DNA of 44,087 nt from Candidatus Hermodarchaeota archaeon (lineage in GTDB: Archaea; Asgardarchaeota; Hermodarchaeia; Hermodarchaeales; Hermodarchaeaceae). The translations under genes and the position numbers were made by a program. Each line of letters starts with the position of its first letter. The stretch's first letter is position 1. The stretch covers positions 1-44,087 of the forward strand of contig JAEOUH010000068.1 in NCBI GenBank assembly GCA_016839365.1, in the 5' to 3' direction. Positions 11,176 through 40,212 of this stretch are shown here, one piece after another. The notes beneath the pieces are model-generated. The model saw only the letters and a program-made list of their open reading frames with translations, ran no database searches and was not told the origin of the DNA.

Positions 11176-11265
11176 TCCATGCACAATAATTCCGCAATTG
11201 ACTTCCATTAAGCTTATTTGCCCTTGGTCGAACGTAAGGGACACCACCTCTTGAGGACATGGTCC

Positions 11266-12156
11266 ATGGTCTTAGTTACAAGTGGTACACCATCTAAATT
11301 CCTCGCTTGGAATGTCGCCCAAACGCTCAAAGCCGAGTACTTGAACACCGAAATCAAGCACTTCCCTGATGGTGAGACATACATTCGATTTCTTGGAGAT
11401 GTCACAAAAGAAGATGTCATTGTCATCCAATCCTTGGCTCTCAAACCCAACGATTATCTCATCGAACTCTTCCTCATGCTAGATGCCCTCAAAGATCTCA
11501 AAGCGAAACGTGTTGTCACCGTCTTACCTTATTTTGCTTATGCTCGACAGGATGAGCGCTTCAAGCCAGGCGAAGCTATTAGCCTAAAAACTGTAAGCAG
11601 ACTAATCGAAGCCGCTGGTTCAGATTATATCTATACAATCGACTCTCATCGGCACCGGGTTGTTGATCAAGATGAACTCACAACTGTTCCCCTACATGAT
11701 CTAAGTGCTATGGAAGAACTAGCGAAGTACATGAACAGCAAACATACGCTTCACAATCTCGCTGTCATTGGTCCTGATTCGGAGGCAGGGGCATGGGCAA
11801 AAATTGCTGCAGACGCCCTATCTGTGGATTACGATGCCCTCGTTAAGAAACGACACGACGCTGAAACCGTAGAAATTCAACCCCGTGAACTAAACCTCAA
11901 AGGACGGGACGTACTCATCGTCGACGACATCATCAGCACAGGAAACACCATTATCAAAGCCATTGACGTCTTGAAGAAAAATGGGGCCAAAGACGTCTAC
12001 GTTGCATGTACACATCCGCTCTTGGTCCTCAATGCATTGGTCCGAATATATGAGGCAGGCGCTCTCGATGTAGTCGGTACAGACACAGTGCCCTCAGGCA
12101 TAAGCCATGTTTCAGTTGCTCCCGTCATTGTTGATGCCCTAAAGAAGTTGAAATAA
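11266..12156 (+). CDS. prs: Ribose-phosphate pyrophosphokinase
   Basis: FPDGETYIR, PYFAYARQD, GEAIS, VDDIISTGNT, CTH, GTDT. Confidence 0.96.
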   Translation: MVLVTSGTPSKFLAWNVAQTLKAEYLNTEIKHFPDGETYIRFLGDVTKEDVIVIQSLALKPNDYLIELFLMLDALKDLKAKRVVTVLPYFAYARQDERFKPGEAISLKTVSRLIEAAGSDYIYTIDSHRHRVVDQDELTTVPLHDLSAMEELAKYMNSKHTLHNLAVIGPDSEAGAWAKIAADALSVDYDALVKKRHDAETVEIQPRELNLKGRDVLIVDDIISTGNTIIKAIDVLKKNGAKDVYVACTHPLLVLNALVRIYEAGALDVVGTDTVPSGISHVSVAPVIVDALKKLK

Positions 12157-12171
12157 CTGGTGAAATCTTGC

Positions 12172-12441
12172 ATGTCTAGCCCTCCACGAAAATTCTGGAA
12201 AGCACTCAAATGCCCAGTCTGTGGTGAACGTGCAGTATTTTACGTTACGATGGATGCAGTTAAGGATGCAACCCAATATCCTGTTCCATTCGAAGTTATA
12301 CACGAGGACCACAAATTCACAATATTTCTTGATTCGGGGTTGCTGATTAGCCGGATAGAGGAATTTCCAGCACCTCCCCAACCGGTAGTTACACAGCAAC
12401 GCAAATCCAAACAGAAAACCAAAAGCAAAAAGACTAAATAA
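12172..12441 (+). CDS. Small putative Zn-binding protein (CxxC...HxxH)
   Basis: CPVCG...IHEDHKFTIFLD, Lys-rich tail, GGTGA upstream of ATG 12172. Confidence 0.7.
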   Translation: MSSPPRKFWKALKCPVCGERAVFYVTMDAVKDATQYPVPFEVIHEDHKFTIFLDSGLLISRIEEFPAPPQPVVTQQRKSKQKTKSKKTK

Positions 12442-12447
12442 GGCATC

Positions 12448-12465: not shown

Positions 12466-12591
12466 AGCCCGTTAGTGTAGAATACTTCAAAGCGAGTATA
12501 CACCATGGTCAATCATCCGAGGCTCTGGACCCACTCATCATAGCGGAGGAGAAACCTTGGGACCGCGGTTCGAATCCGCGACGGGCTACCA
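12466..12591 (+). tRNA. trnQ: tRNA-Gln(CUG) with two introns (12481-12505 at 15/16; 12529-12553 at 37/38) and encoded CCA
   Basis: Acceptor AGCCCGT/ACGGGCT, D-arm GTG..TGGTCAAT..CAT, anticodon stem CGAGG/CCTTG around CT-CTG-GA, T-arm CGCGG-TTCGAAT-CCGCG; BHB-like pairing at both introns. Confidence 0.95.
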
Positions 12592-12609
12592 CTTTTCTTC
12601 TACAACAAA

Positions 12610-13158
12610 CTATCGGTCGAAGAATATATTCTTGCCCGTGACGGCTAGCGGAATTCCAATAATAATCGTGGAGTCGGGCATGAGGTTTAGTCCATATGCT
12701 GCGGCTCCAGCACGGAAGAATATCCGGTTATCAACATTATGGATTTGAGCAGTTTTCACAGCACTTCCCAAGGCAATGCCCATATCCAGTGCTTTGATGA
12801 TACAGGTAGGTCCGGCAAAAAAGTGCCCCTCTTTTCGTCCTGCCTTTAGCATCTGGCTACAATTTTCGTATCCACAAGCACCACATTGTGTGCCCAAAGC
12901 CTTTGGTCCCTTCAGCCCAATCAGAACTAATACGGCACAATCTTCAACATTTTTTGCATCGCGAGTCCAATGATCGTCAGGGGCATTTGACATCTTACGT
13001 AATTCCTTGGCAACAACATCCTTTTCATTCCCTGTCAAAATCATCGATTCAAGATCATCAATTCCTTTGCCCTTCGGTGCGGTTCGTGCTGCAAGCAGCA
13101 TCATTCTAGCAACATCGATGAGGGCTTTGGTTTCTTCTTCTGAGCCAGTAATTCGCAT
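12610..13158 (-). CDS. DUF2148-type ferredoxin-domain/nitroreductase-like protein
   Basis: AARTAPKGKG, CGACGYENC, GPTC, DMGIALGSAVK, VDNRI. Confidence 0.85.
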   Translation of the reverse strand: MRITGSEEETKALIDVARMMLLAARTAPKGKGIDDLESMILTGNEKDVVAKELRKMSNAPDDHWTRDAKNVEDCAVLVLIGLKGPKALGTQCGACGYENCSQMLKAGRKEGHFFAGPTCIIKALDMGIALGSAVKTAQIHNVDNRIFFRAGAAAYGLNLMPDSTIIIGIPLAVTGKNIFFDR

Positions 13159-37382: not shown

Positions 37383-37943
37383 TTAGGGTTTGTGCCAACT
37401 AAACACGAAATAACGGACCTTCCCTGATTCAGCAGCGGTTGCTAACACAAACCGTTTGCGCACCGAAGTCGCCAACCTGCCAGCTCGTACAACCTCAATG
37501 GCGGAGACTTCGTCGGATTTGGCAATTACTTCAACGATGAATAGAGAGTGATCAATTCCTGGCCCACGACGATATACAGCAAAGTCAGCGCCAAATTTGA
37601 GGCCAGGTCGGACGATGAAGCCCCGTTTTCGCAGATCTTCATAGACTTGGTATTTGCGGCTGAACTCTTTGTGCTGTTGTTCAGCAACAGCGATGAGGTC
37701 TTTTTCTTTGATGGGAACACTGGAATCTTCCATATATACCTCGATTTTTCGTTTCCGCAAAAGATGGAGGGCTTCGAAAAAGGAGAGCTGGGATGGGCGA
37801 TCGAATTCTGTTGTTTTTGGTTTGCGAATGCCTAGGGGCTTACCATAGAAGCCATCGCTGTAAAGTTTTGAACCATCTTCGGGGTTCCAGACAACGACTT
37901 TGTTTTCCACAATTTGGGCAGGAATCGGTTTATCGGTTGGCAT
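37383..37943 (-). CDS. endA: tRNA splicing endonuclease, catalytic subunit
   Basis: LSFFEALHL, VYEDLRKRG, GLKFGADFAVY, GPGIDHS, SVRK (Tyr-His-Lys triad). Confidence 0.96.
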   Translation of the reverse strand: MPTDKPIPAQIVENKVVVWNPEDGSKLYSDGFYGKPLGIRKPKTTEFDRPSQLSFFEALHLLRKRKIEVYMEDSSVPIKEKDLIAVAEQQHKEFSRKYQVYEDLRKRGFIVRPGLKFGADFAVYRRGPGIDHSLFIVEVIAKSDEVSAIEVVRAGRLATSVRKRFVLATAAESGKVRYFVFSWHKP

Positions 37944-38714: not shown

Positions 38715-39569
38715 TCATGGAATTGGAAACACAATTCCGGGGATTGTAAGCACTACAACGATGATGCCCAATCCAAGGCAAAAGATCCACCACGGCACCT
38801 TGACGGCATAATATCGAAGCAGAGCCAAAGTAACGATCCCCGTGAAGAAAGCGACGAGTATGAGGCTCAATAGAATGAACACGGGCAAAATGAATACAGC
38901 ACCTTCAACAATGAAGTCTAAGACAACGACCCCAAAGATTGCAGGTACACTTAATAAAAAACTCAGTCGCAGGGCTTCCTCTCGCTCAACGCCTCGTACC
39001 AGCAGCCAGGTCAACGTCAATGCGGAGCGGCTAATCCCTGGAAGCACGGCGATGCCCTGAAGCAACCCCAGTACAAAGGCTTCGCGAAGCGAAATATCCG
39101 CCAACTTGAGGTCTCCTCTTGCACCTCGCTGAAAAAATAACACGATACCAGTTATGATGAGCAGAATTCCGATTATAAGAGTAACAACACTGCCCATAAG
39201 ATACGTTACCCAGCTCTTGAGAAAGAAGTACAACGGCAAAGCAATAACAATGGTTCCGATGGTTCCCACGATGACAAACACGAACAGCGGACCAAACCAT
39301 CTTTGAGGTTCCTCGTCGGTTGCGACTGTGCTTTCGGGTCGAAGTCGCGAGTAAACTGGACTAAAAATATCCCTATGATAGAAGGCAATCACTGTGAGGG
39401 CGGTTCCCAAATGGAACCAGAAAACAAGAGATAAGACGAAAGAAGGATCAAATAGAAAGATGTTCACTCCAACAAGTAAAATTTGCCCCTCACTACTCAC
39501 AGGCAAGTACTCAAGTAGCCCCTGCATTAAGGCTAGAATCAAGAGTGGTATTATCATGGTAAACATCAC
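38715..39569 (-). CDS. uppP: Undecaprenyl(polyprenyl)-diphosphate phosphatase
   Basis: QGLLEYLPVSSEG, HLGT, QGIAVLPGISRS, SFLLSVP. Confidence 0.92.
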   Translation of the reverse strand: MMFTMIIPLLILALMQGLLEYLPVSSEGQILLVGVNIFLFDPSFVLSLVFWFHLGTALTVIAFYHRDIFSPVYSRLRPESTVATDEEPQRWFGPLFVFVIVGTIGTIVIALPLYFFLKSWVTYLMGSVVTLIIGILLIITGIVLFFQRGARGDLKLADISLREAFVLGLLQGIAVLPGISRSALTLTWLLVRGVEREEALRLSFLLSVPAIFGVVVLDFIVEGAVFILPVFILLSLILVAFFTGIVTLALLRYYAVKVPWWIFCLGLGIIVVVLTIPGIVFPIP

Positions 39570-39741
39570 TCAGGCTGGTCTTCGATGATAGCATCCTTTC
39601 CCTTTAAGACTTGTCTGATAACGCGCCAATAATCTTGACTCACCTGCATATCTGCAAAATTCCAAGGATGCGCCATTGCTTTTTTTTCAAGGGCGAATCG
39701 CTTAAAACCTGCCGTTGACAAAAGCCTGTCGAGGATTAGCT

Positions 39742-40068
39742 GTGGAACCCGAACGTCCCTCTCCAGCGGAAAGTCAAAAACTCATACTACTTCGCAAAAT
39801 GGTTGAAGATCCAGCAAAGCGCGCGATTCTACGTTGCTTAAGCGATGGACTATGGCACACTACCTCCGAGCTTGCCCGATATGCGAAAAAGGCGAACCCG
39901 GTCATCGGCTTAGTCACTGTGGGGACCATCCTAACACGGATGCAACACCAACTCAGCGAACATTTTTTGGAGCAAATGGTCCAACAAGCTGATGAAGGGG
40001 TTACTTCCTGGCGGATTGGAGTAGAGTGGTTGGATGCTGTCACAGGGCTCTTGAAAACGCCCGGATAA
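39742..40068 (+). CDS. Winged-helix DNA-binding protein
   Basis: DPAKRAILRCLSDGLWHTTSELAR (ArsR-like start) and a wing ending in WRI; GAGGA before GTG. Confidence 0.65.
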   Translation: MEPERPSPAESQKLILLRKMVEDPAKRAILRCLSDGLWHTTSELARYAKKANPVIGLVTVGTILTRMQHQLSEHFLEQMVQQADEGVTSWRIGVEWLDAVTGLLKTPG

Positions 40069-40212
40069 GGGGCGATAAATCGCTTTAGACGCGTCATTTC
40101 GAAAGAATAAAGGGATTAATACACTATTTATAAAGAAAAAGCTTTTTAATCGGTGTAAAACTTAAGTAGGAGCAGTAAGAACGGTTATTTTAGGAAAATA
40201 CCGGTGTTGCTT

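What the first reader, a model, noticed from the sequence alone, without database searches (positions are those of the whole stretch)
12466..12591. tRNA-Gln(CUG) with two equal-length introns, one in the D-loop
Seen: removing 12481-12505 and 12529-12553 (25 nt each) gives a normal cloverleaf. Intron 1 at 15/16: helix GTGT/ACAC, bulges AG|A and CA|T, inner helix ATACTT/GAGTAT, no outer helix (relaxed motif). Intron 2 at 37/38: helix CTCT/GGAG, bulges GG|A and AA|A. The intron 1 helix uses the D-stem strand, so splicing must precede final folding. A1-U72 is the known GatDE identity pair. Multi-intron tRNAs are best known from Thermoproteales and are easily missed by annotation.
Basis: partly seen in the sequence, partly recalled or inferred. 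Interest (0 to 1): 0.75.

Follow-up and report, generated by a model that had tools for sequence, protein, structure and literature searches.

The report
Two-intron glutamine tRNA gene, Asgard archaeon
This is a real glutamine tRNA gene of an uncultured Asgard (Hermod-group) archaeon, broken by two small introns, one of them in the D-loop where standard tRNA finders miss it; such genes are already documented in Asgard archaea, so it is a clean example, not a new kind.

Summary
Removing 12481-12505 and 12529-12553 in silico gives a 76-nt tRNA-Gln(CUG). ARAGORN and Rfam find nothing in the unspliced window.

The boundaries of the D-loop insert are fixed without using any motif. All 19 held genomes of the class carry the syntenic ortholog. 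Six of them lack the insert exactly and 13 carry it, at 21-25 nt. Exons are almost invariant and introns vary freely, while their helices are kept by compensatory changes.

Intron 1 forms an HBh' bulge-helix-bulge motif whose central helix uses the D-stem strand G10-U13. Intron 2 is a canonical 37/38 intron.

The genome encodes a catalytic EndA with the specificity-loop lysine, a His-less EndA paralog, RtcB and GatE.

The host is Hermodarchaeia, not Thermoproteales. Multi-intron tRNAs with hidden D-arm introns are already in print for Asgard archaea (PMC11291895; bioRxiv 10.64898/2026.10.13.758758). This scan had already noted such genes elsewhere in this genome.

Verdict: new member of a known kind. 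Splicing itself is inferred, not shown. The most interesting extras are precise intron presence/absence among congeners and possible intron exchange between the two Gln isoacceptor genes.

The parts
12427..12443 (+). Conserved purine-rich plus TATA-like promoter element (AAAAAGACTAAATAAGG), about 23-39 nt upstream of tRNA position 1
   Evidence: The block is nearly identical upstream of the 15 genus-g1 orthologs. A similar AAAAAGCCTATAAA block sits at the same distance in the 4 genus-g2 orthologs. Its promoter function is inferred from position and conservation only.
12466..12480 (+). Exon 1: tRNA positions 1-15 (acceptor 5' strand, U8, A9, D-stem 5' strand G10-U13, A14, G15)
   Evidence: The exon is invariant in 19 orthologs except position 7 (G or U), which co-varies with position 66.
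12481..12505 (+). Intron 1, 25 nt, between positions 15 and 16 (D-loop); HBh' bulge-helix-bulge motif
   Evidence: It is absent precisely in 6 of 19 orthologs. The central-helix complement (RCAC) sits at a fixed offset from the 3' boundary in 12 of 13 copies. The inner helix has 4 of 6 pairs with changes on both sides.
12506..12528 (+). Exon 2: positions 16-37 (rest of the D-loop, D-stem 3' strand, anticodon stem 5' strand, anticodon CUG at 12525-12527)
   Evidence: The exon is invariant in all 19 orthologs.
12529..12553 (+). Intron 2, 25 nt, canonical 37/38 position; hBH(Bh') motif with the anticodon stem as outer helix
   Evidence: It is present in 19 of 19 orthologs at 24-26 nt. The inner helix has 5 of 5 pairs with changes on both sides. 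The boundary can slide by 1 nt (A|A) without changing the product.
12554..12591 (+). Exon 3: positions 38-76 (anticodon stem 3' strand, 4-nt variable region, T arm, acceptor 3' strand, discriminator A, encoded CCA)
12592..12599 (+). T-rich stretch directly after CCA, a likely transcription stop
   Evidence: T-rich tracts follow the gene in the orthologs. The function is inferred.
37383..37943 (-). EndA catalytic (alpha) subunit, 186 aa, with the Crenarchaea-specific loop (L1) lysine
   Evidence: E 6.3e-46 to A. pernix EndA alpha (3P1Z_B). Y, H and K are conserved in the printed alignment, and K41 aligns with APE K44. PF02778 plus PF01974. K44 is needed for D-loop intron cleavage in A. pernix (PMC3241643 passages).

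Best explanation
12466-12591 is the functional, single-copy tRNA-Gln(CUG) gene of a Hermodarchaeia (Asgard) archaeon. It is probably transcribed from the conserved A-rich/TATA-like element about 30 nt upstream, as a 126-nt precursor with an encoded CCA.

In the precursor, the D-stem 5' strand G10-U13 pairs with the intron-1 stretch ACAC instead of its mature partner. Together with a 6-bp intron hairpin and two 3-nt bulges, this forms an HBh' bulge-helix-bulge motif. The anticodon-loop bases C32-U35 pair with intron 2 to form the canonical motif at 37/38.

The (alpha-beta)2-type splicing endonuclease then cuts inside each bulge. It consists of the catalytic alpha subunit at 37383-37943, which carries the specificity-loop lysine, and a His-less paralog on contig C19. 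RtcB joins the three exons. Only then can the D stem, the 9-nt D-loop and the L-shape form. Next come Glu charging and GatDE transamidation, and GatDE reads A1-U72 and D-loop size.

Shown here: the anatomy, the cloverleaf after in-silico removal, exact intron-less alleles, covariation, and the presence of the enzymes.

Inferred: transcription, the cut sites, the order of events and ligation.
For: -: in-silico removal gives a 76-nt tRNA-Gln(ctg) by ARAGORN.
- all 19 genomes held for the class carry one ortholog, between the same PRPP-synthetase and DUF2148 genes. 6 of 19 have GTGTAG|TGGTCAA contiguous, which is exactly the predicted junction. 13 of 19 have a 21-25-nt insert there, and 19 of 19 have the 37/38 intron.
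- 74 of 76 exon columns are invariant among the 13 aligned precursors. Only 2 of 25 intron-1 positions and 2 of 25 intron-2 positions (numbered on the window's sequence) are invariant. Position 7 co-varies with 66 (G-C in 8, U-A in 5).
- 95.2% of cells are paired against 36-51% when partners are slid. 10 pairs have changes on both sides, and 0 of 500 shuffles reach the covariation score.
- RNAalifold independently predicts the central and inner helices of intron 1 with the 3-nt bulge.
- the central helix of intron 1 is in the MFE of 11 of 13 precursors. Enforcing the D stem costs 8.0 kcal/mol in the window's copy.
- about 2e-4 chance of such a motif at one fixed site and length.
- Rfam's tRNA model hits 4 of 5 intron-1-less orthologs and 0 of 2 with the intron.
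- there are two EndA paralogs. The one in the window keeps Y, H and K and the K44-equivalent lysine. The other has Thr in place of the catalytic His.
- RtcB and GatE are present.
- tRNA-Gln(UUG) has an intron at the same 15/16 site in 15 of 15 genomes where it was recovered.
- PMC3241643 passages show A. pernix (alpha-beta)2 EndA cleaving a D-loop intron in vitro.
- PMC5829648 passages state that Asgard archaea have (alpha-beta)2 EndA with the L1 loop.
Against: - No RNA data. Neither transcription nor either junction has been observed.
- The genome is a metagenome-assembled draft (83.7% complete), so a second gene copy cannot be strictly excluded.
- The window's intron 2 has a poor inner helix: a C.A mismatch next to the central helix, then 2 pairs. 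Its BHB register is in the MFE of only 5 of 13 precursors, and RNAalifold prefers a register shifted by one.
- A second BHB register exists for intron 1 in the window. It cuts 1 nt further in on both sides, also has H 4/4, and my own scan preferred it.
- One ortholog (L014) has a degenerate inner helix with 2 of 5 pairs. One (L016) has only 3 of 4 central pairs.
- HBh'-like motifs arise by chance about 0.6 times per 126 nt.
- The beta-subunit assignment rests on sequence only.
Confidence: 0.88

Rival explanations
1. Same gene and same mechanism, but EndA uses the alternative register for intron 1. Here the central helix is TGTA/TACA and the cuts fall after 12481 and after 12504. That removes 23 nt and leaves a D-loop 2 nt longer.
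For: In the window this register also has 4 of 4 central pairs, a 5-bp inner helix and one outer G.U pair. My BHB-plus-ARAGORN scan ranked it first. The unconstrained MFE draws a 5-bp helix that includes A14-U.
Against: - Across 13 orthologs, register a has 4 of 4 central pairs in 12, and register b in only 7.
- The 6 intron-less alleles equal the product of register a exactly.
- Under register b, the two retained nucleotides would vary between species, inside a D-loop that is otherwise invariant in 19 of 19 orthologs.
- GatDE rejects tRNA-Glu for its enlarged D-loop (PMC2943598 passages), so a longer D-loop is likely to be harmful.
Confidence: 0.06
2. The 25-nt D-loop insert is not an intron. 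It stays in the mature RNA as an extra arm, and only the 37/38 intron is spliced.
For: The 2026 preprint warns that some D-arm insertions may not be introns at all. There are no RNA data here.
Against: - The insert conserves exactly what a BHB motif needs: the RCAC complement at a fixed offset, 3-nt bulges, and an inner helix kept by compensatory changes.
- That central helix sequesters the D-stem strand, by 8.0 kcal/mol, which would prevent the cloverleaf from forming.
- Otherwise the insert's sequence and length drift freely.
- An enlarged D-loop is a GatDE anti-determinant.
Confidence: 0.03
3. A decaying pseudogene. The functional tRNA-Gln(CUG) lies in the unassembled 16% of the genome, or CAG is read by tRNA-Gln(UUG) alone.
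For: The assembly is 83.7% complete. No standard tool detects the gene.
Against: - Exons are invariant across 19 species, while introns and flanks diverge.
- There is a compensatory 7:66 change.
- The promoter block and synteny are conserved.
- Each of the 19 genomes has exactly one CUG ortholog, always at this locus.
- No other CUG gene was found in G000.
Confidence: 0.02

Closest known systems
Multi-intron tRNA genes of Asgard archaea (Atabeyarchaeia and Freyarchaeia, PMC11291895, passages read; Jordiarchaeia, Atabeyarchaeia and others, bioRxiv 10.64898/2026.10.13.758758, abstract, the first part of Results and found passages read)
   Same: - Short BHB-type introns of about 20-30 nt sit at non-canonical positions.
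- Two or more introns per gene are common.
- D-arm inserts are the ones standard annotators miss.
- Intron-less relatives serve as a motif-free way to define the inserts.
- Most of these genomes have two EndA paralogs.
   Different: I therefore cannot say whether this class, or this gene, is in its tables. Here the intron burden appears lower. My heuristic scan gives 14 of 35 genes intron-less and 7 of 35 with two or more introns. The focal families in the preprint have 97% of genes interrupted.
Aeropyrum pernix pre-tRNA-Thr(UGU) with a D-loop intron, cleaved in vitro by (alpha-beta)2 EndA (PMC3241643, passages read)
   Same: There is a D-loop intron with a BHB motif. The enzyme is a heterotetramer type whose alpha subunit carries the specificity loop, and its lysine (K44) is required. 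The window's EndA aligns K41 to K44.
   Different: That case is a crenarchaeon with a single intron whose motif includes an outer helix (the paper calls it a canonical BHB). Here no outer helix can form (HBh'), the central helix consumes the D-stem strand, and a second intron is present.
Methanopyrus kandleri pre-tRNA-Glu(UUC) with an HBh' intron in the D-loop (PMC5829648, passages read)
   Same: The motif class is the same (HBh', no outer helix) and so is the region of the tRNA.
   Different: M. kandleri EndA lacks the L1 loop and cuts that intron inefficiently. The window's EndA has the loop lysine.
Multiple-intron tRNAs of Thermoproteales (Sugahara et al. 2008 and Fujishima et al. 2010, seen only as cited in PMC4033280)
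   Same: Up to three BHB introns per tRNA, non-canonical positions, similar introns shared between different tRNA genes, and (alpha-beta)2 EndA.
   Different: A different phylum (Thermoproteota against Asgard). According to the 2026 preprint, standard annotators find nearly all introns there.

Membership tests
Archaeal BHB (tRNA-type, EndA-dependent) intron | A 4-bp central helix flanked by two 3-nt bulges on opposite strands, with the exon/intron boundaries inside the bulges | tested here: met
   Intron 1: GTGT/ACAC, 4 of 4 pairs, bulges AG|A and CA|T. Intron 2: CTCT/GGAG, 4 of 4 pairs including one G.U, bulges GG|A and AA|A. Across orthologs, 12 of 13 copies of intron 1 and 19 of 19 copies of intron 2 have 4 of 4 central pairs.
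Archaeal BHB (tRNA-type, EndA-dependent) intron | At least one flanking helix (h from exon or h' from intron) | tested here: met
   Intron 1 has h' of 6 bp and no h. Intron 2 has h as the anticodon stem (5-6 bp), and h' is weak in the window. The h' helices are supported by compensatory changes: 4 of 6 pairs in intron 1 and 5 of 5 in intron 2.
Archaeal BHB (tRNA-type, EndA-dependent) intron | Removal restores a functional RNA | tested here: met
   cloverleaf tRNA-Gln(ctg); natural intron-1-less alleles have the same junction and are recognised by Rfam RF00005 at 44-45 bits.
Archaeal BHB (tRNA-type, EndA-dependent) intron | Actual cleavage by EndA and ligation by RtcB | not testable with these tools
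   No RNA-seq or enzymology is available. The genes for EndA alpha, a His-less EndA paralog and RtcB are present.
tRNA-Gln (archaeal, GatDE route) | Cloverleaf with a CUG or UUG anticodon, an A1-U72 first pair and a small D-loop | tested here: met
   anticodon ctg, A1-T72, 9-nt D-loop after splicing. The identity elements come from PMC2943598 passages. GatE is present in the genome. Aminoacylation was not tested.
(alpha-beta)2 splicing endonuclease with broad specificity | A separate catalytic alpha with the Y/H/K triad and the L1 (CSL) lysine, plus a non-catalytic beta subunit | tested here: inconclusive
   Alpha: met by alignment to 3P1Z_B. The second paralog (L032:1210-1800) has Thr where M. 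jannaschii has the catalytic His. It matches the structural N-terminal repeat of fused EndAs and, weakly, the beta subunits 3P1Z_A (E 2e-6) and NEQ261. Heterotetramer formation was not tested.

The most novel reading that the evidence does not exclude
The 15/16 intron of the two tRNA-Gln genes behaves as an exchangeable cassette.

- It has been lost precisely at least 2-3 times from the CUG gene within one class.
- In three genomes (G000, G007, G012) the UUG isoacceptor carries a CUG-type intron: 0.68-0.80 identity to the CUG intron of the same genome, and up to 0.88 across genomes.
- Their relatives keep unrelated 20-21-nt or 34-35-nt introns at the same site.

This would be gene conversion of an intron between isoacceptor genes through their identical flanking exons. 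It would be a concrete, datable route of BHB-intron spread and replacement in Asgard archaea, a route for which the 2026 preprint found no general evidence.
Probability: 0.4. Interest if true: 0.5.

Novelty: new member of a known kind. Interest (0 to 1): 0.33.

Why it matters
- Annotation. Without this gene the genome appears to lack tRNA-Gln(CUG). The UUG gene is hidden in the same way, so the genome would seem to have no glutamine tRNA at all.
- A clean natural experiment. Congeneric genomes with and without the D-loop intron define its boundaries to the nucleotide without using the splicing motif. This removes the circularity that the 2026 preprint criticises.
- A testable folding dependency. 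The splice motif and the D stem compete for the same four bases, in a tRNA whose D-loop size is read by GatDE.
- What it does not change. It fits what is already known about archaeal tRNA splicing.

Tried and rejected
- Standard detection failed. ARAGORN default and Rfam at gathering thresholds found nothing in the window. The whole-genome RF00005 search gave 31 matches (23 over the cut-off), none at this locus. ARAGORN -i gave a wrong call, tRNA-Ser(aga) with a 55-nt intron.
- The motif alone is weak evidence. It is expected about 0.6 times per 126 nt.
- My own SPLITS-like scan uses T-arm and acceptor pairing, then BHB enumeration, then ARAGORN at rising thresholds. It is permissive, giving tens to hundreds of acceptable variants per gene. 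For this gene it picked the alternative 23-nt register, so its per-gene boundaries are only good to about 2 nt. It cannot see genes with an interrupted T arm or acceptor stem, or with more than three introns. I use it only for rough counts. Before counting I dropped 4 of its 39 rows: three that share a 3' end with a better row, and one without CCA and with an undefined anticodon.
- A near-copy of intron 1 on contig C71 (5 mismatches in 25) has no tRNA context, and I treat it as chance.
- Rfam did not list L013, although its exons equal those of L012. I did not find out why.
- The UUG gene was not recovered in 4 of 19 genomes (G003, G015, G017, G018). I cannot tell whether this is assembly gaps or divergence.
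- The tree built from two flanking proteins leaves 7 of 16 inner branches unresolved. I therefore cannot separate gain from loss of intron 1, or count the conversion events.
- I could not search papers for the string '15/16', so I make no claim about whether this exact position is in print.
- Supplementary tables of the 2026 preprint and of PMC11291895 were closed. They may already list Hermod-group genomes or tRNA-Gln D-loop introns.

Full report
**What is there.**
The stretch 12466-12591 lies in a 168-nt gap. Upstream is a PRPP-synthetase gene (11218-12156) followed by a small conserved ORF (12160-12441). Downstream is a DUF2148 gene on the other strand (12610-13158). ARAGORN and Rfam at gathering thresholds find no RNA gene anywhere in the window. 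ARAGORN with introns allowed miscalls this stretch as tRNA-Ser(aga) with a 55-nt intron.

Reading the sequence, the ends form a perfect 7-bp acceptor stem with A1-U72. There is a 5-bp T stem with a TTCGAAT loop, a discriminator A and an encoded CCA. Slicing out 12481-12505 and 12529-12553 inside a script gives 76 nt, which ARAGORN calls tRNA-Gln(ctg). Removing only one of the two stretches does not restore the gene: removing the first alone gives nothing, and removing the second alone gives only a distorted call that starts 25 nt in.

**The splice motifs.**
For intron 1, the four bases before the last two exon bases (GTGT, tRNA positions 10-13) pair with ACAC. ACAC sits exactly four to seven... 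more precisely, it occupies the four positions just before the last two intron bases. The 3-nt bulges are AG|A and CA|T. A 6-bp hairpin (12482-12487 with 12494-12499) stacks on the intron side, and no exon helix can form on the outer side. This is the HBh' form.

For intron 2, C32-U35 pair with GGAG (one G.U). The bulges are GG|A and AA|A, and the anticodon stem is the outer helix. The inner helix is poor in this copy.

Such motifs are not rare. With 4 of 4 central pairs and at least 5 inner pairs at lengths 15-40, they occur at 1.9e-4 per site-and-length test, which is about 0.6 per 126 nt. The motif alone therefore proves little.

**Motif-free evidence from relatives.**
A DNA search of related genomes found the same gene in every one of the 19 genomes held for this class (15 in the window's genus, 4 in a second genus). 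It always lies between the same flanking genes. Parsing the orthologs gave:
- 19 of 19 have an insert of 24-26 nt at 37/38.
- 13 of 19 have an insert of 21-25 nt between G15 and U16.
- 6 of 19 (L012, L013, L015, L017, L018, L019) have no insert there and read straight through the predicted junction.

In the window, neither boundary of intron 1 can slide, because the bases on either side differ. The intron-less alleles therefore fix it as exactly 12481-12505.

Among the 13 aligned precursors, 74 of 76 exon columns are invariant. The two variable columns are the pair 7:66 (G-C in 8, U-A in 5). Only 2 of 25 intron-1 positions and 2 of 25 intron-2 positions (numbered on the window's sequence) are invariant.

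Rfam's tRNA model finds 4 of the 5 intron-1-less orthologs I gave it (44-45 bits, full length). It finds neither of the two intron-1-containing ones. So the D-loop insert is what hides the gene.

**Structure conservation.**
I tested the precursor structure that I wrote from the window on the 13 precursors:
- 95.2% of cells form standard pairs, against 36-51% when partners are slid by 1-3 columns.
- 10 pairs show changes on both sides.
- 0 of 500 shuffles reach the observed covariation score.

All variation is in the intron helices. Four of 6 pairs of the intron-1 hairpin and 5 of 5 pairs of the intron-2 hairpin show changes on both sides (for example ATACT/AGTAT, CTCCT/AGGAG, CCTCT/AGAGG).

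RNAalifold, given no structure, returns the intron-1 central helix, the 3-nt bulge and the hairpin. For intron 2 it prefers a register shifted by one.

The central helix of intron 1 is in the unconstrained MFE of 11 of 13 precursors. That of intron 2 is in 5 of 13.

**The competition with the D stem.**
G10-U13 cannot pair with both ACAC and the mature partner UCAU, which gives only 3 pairs plus U.U. In the window's precursor, enforcing the mature D stem costs 8.0 kcal/mol relative to the BHB conformer (37 C parameters). The precursor should therefore sit in the splice-competent fold, and the D arm can form only after excision. That splicing 'must' come first is an inference.

**An ambiguity.**
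In the window the helix is 5 bp long (A14 can pair with U12499). A second register therefore exists, with cuts 1 nt further in on each side. It would remove 23 nt and leave a D-loop 2 nt longer, and my own scan preferred it. Three things argue against it:
- The alternative would put two variable bases into an otherwise invariant D-loop.

I give the alternative 6%.

**Machinery.**
The ORF at 37383-37943 matches the catalytic alpha subunit of the A. pernix heterotetrameric endonuclease (3P1Z_B, E 6.3e-46). It keeps the Tyr, His and Lys, and its K41 aligns with APE K44. According to passages of PMC3241643, K44 in the Crenarchaea-specific loop is needed to cut a D-loop intron.

A second paralog on contig C19 (196 aa) has Thr at the catalytic His. 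It matches the structural half of fused endonucleases and, weakly, known beta subunits. This fits the (alpha-beta)2 type that PMC5829648 reports for Asgard archaea, with the L1 loop.

RtcB and GatE are also encoded. Passages of PMC2943598 say that GatDE recognises A1-U72 and rejects tRNA-Glu for its enlarged D-loop. Exact removal of a D-loop insert therefore matters for this particular tRNA; this last step is my inference.

**Organism and context.**
Close relatives of the EndA protein (72-95% identity) lie on contigs titled Candidatus Hermodarchaeota, Candidatus Hermodarchaeum or Promethearchaeota. The host is thus an Asgard archaeon of the Hermod group.

The genome is intron-rich. ARAGORN finds 16 tRNA genes without introns and 34 with introns allowed. 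My heuristic scan finds 35 genes with an encoded CCA: 14 intron-less, 14 with one predicted intron, 6 with two and 1 (His) with three. Eleven of them have an intron 5' of the anticodon stem (boundaries approximate).

The other glutamine tRNA, tRNA-Gln(UUG) on contig C41, has the same two-intron layout. An intron sits at 15/16 in all 15 genomes where I recovered that gene.

**Comparison with what is known.**
- D-loop introns cut by (alpha-beta)2 EndA are experimentally established (A. pernix tRNA-Thr, PMC3241643; M. kandleri tRNA-Glu HBh', PMC5829648).
- Multi-intron tRNAs are classical in Thermoproteales (as cited in PMC4033280).
- They are reported for Asgard archaea: 92-95% of tRNA genes in Atabeyarchaeia and Freyarchaeia (PMC11291895).
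- A 2026 preprint shows that tRNAscan-SE misses about 30% of inserts in the focal families, half of them in the D-arm.
- Earlier notes of this scan on other pieces of the same genome describe multi-intron tRNAs as well.

The finding is therefore a new member of a known kind.

**What is mildly new.**
- On a tree of the two flanking proteins, the presence of intron 1 needs at least 3 changes, of which 2 are forced by well-supported branches. The CUG gene has therefore lost (or gained) this intron repeatedly and precisely within one class.
- The UUG genes of G000, G007 and G012 carry an intron that resembles the CUG-type intron: 0.68-0.80 identity within a genome and up to 0.88 across genomes. 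UUG genes of related genomes carry unrelated 20-21-nt or 34-35-nt introns at the same site. This pattern suggests gene conversion between the isoacceptor genes through their identical flanking exons. The tree is too poorly resolved to count events.

**Verdict.**
- Observation: confirmed.
- Interpretation: supported, with the lineage corrected to Asgard.
- Probability that this is a functional, twice-spliced tRNA-Gln(CUG) gene: 0.88.
- Novelty: new member of a known kind.
- Interest: 0.33.

Noticed in passing
G000 contig C41:6942-7070 (+), outside the window: tRNA-Gln(UUG) has the same layout: a 25-nt intron at 15/16 and a 28-nt intron at 37/38. ARAGORN -i miscalls it as tRNA-Phe(aaa). Both glutamine tRNAs of this genome are therefore hidden from standard finders.
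   Followed up: partly
L064 (G016:C88) and L065 (G011:C23): The tRNA-Gln(UUG) genes of two related genomes carry a third insert of 31 nt directly after TGGTCAA (about position 21/22). That makes three inserts, two of them in the D-arm. I did not analyse the motif of the third insert.
   Followed up: no
tRNA-Gln(UUG) genes of G000 (C41), G007 (L053) and G012 (L063), compared with the CUG genes L001-L011: The 15/16 intron of UUG in these three genomes is of the CUG type (0.68-0.88 identity). UUG genes of G002, G014, G009, G006 and G008 have an unrelated 20-21-nt intron there. G005, G004, G001, G010 and G013 have a 34-35-nt one. This suggests intron replacement by gene conversion between isoacceptor genes.
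   Followed up: partly
L014 (G006:C2), tRNA-Gln(CUG) ortholog: Its 21-nt intron 1 keeps the central-helix complement, but the inner helix is degenerate (2 of 5 pairs, T-rich loop). It may be a poorly spliceable or decaying copy. Its closest relatives in the tree include the two genomes that lost the intron.
   Followed up: no
G000 contig C19, L032:1210-1800 (+): This is the second EndA paralog (196 aa), with Thr in place of the catalytic His. It is probably the structural beta subunit. It lies in a tRNA-rich stretch of contig C19, which also carries RtcB (38833-40143).
   Followed up: partly
window 12427-12443 and the same offset in L002-L019: An A-rich plus TATA-like block (AAAAAGACTAAATAAGG) is conserved upstream of all 15 orthologs in the window's genus. 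A similar block lies upstream of the 4 orthologs in the sister genus.
   Followed up: partly
G000 contig C71:3176-3200 (+): A 25-nt near-copy of intron 1 (5 mismatches) with no tRNA-like context around it. About 0.05 such hits are expected by chance (my own estimate, made from no tool call). I treat it as chance.
   Followed up: partly
whole genome G000: My heuristic scan predicts an intron 5' of the anticodon stem in 11 of 35 tRNA genes: Pro x2, Val, His, Ile, Phe, Lys, Leu x2, Gln x2. tRNA-His has three predicted introns (8/9, 15/16, 36/37).
   Followed up: partly
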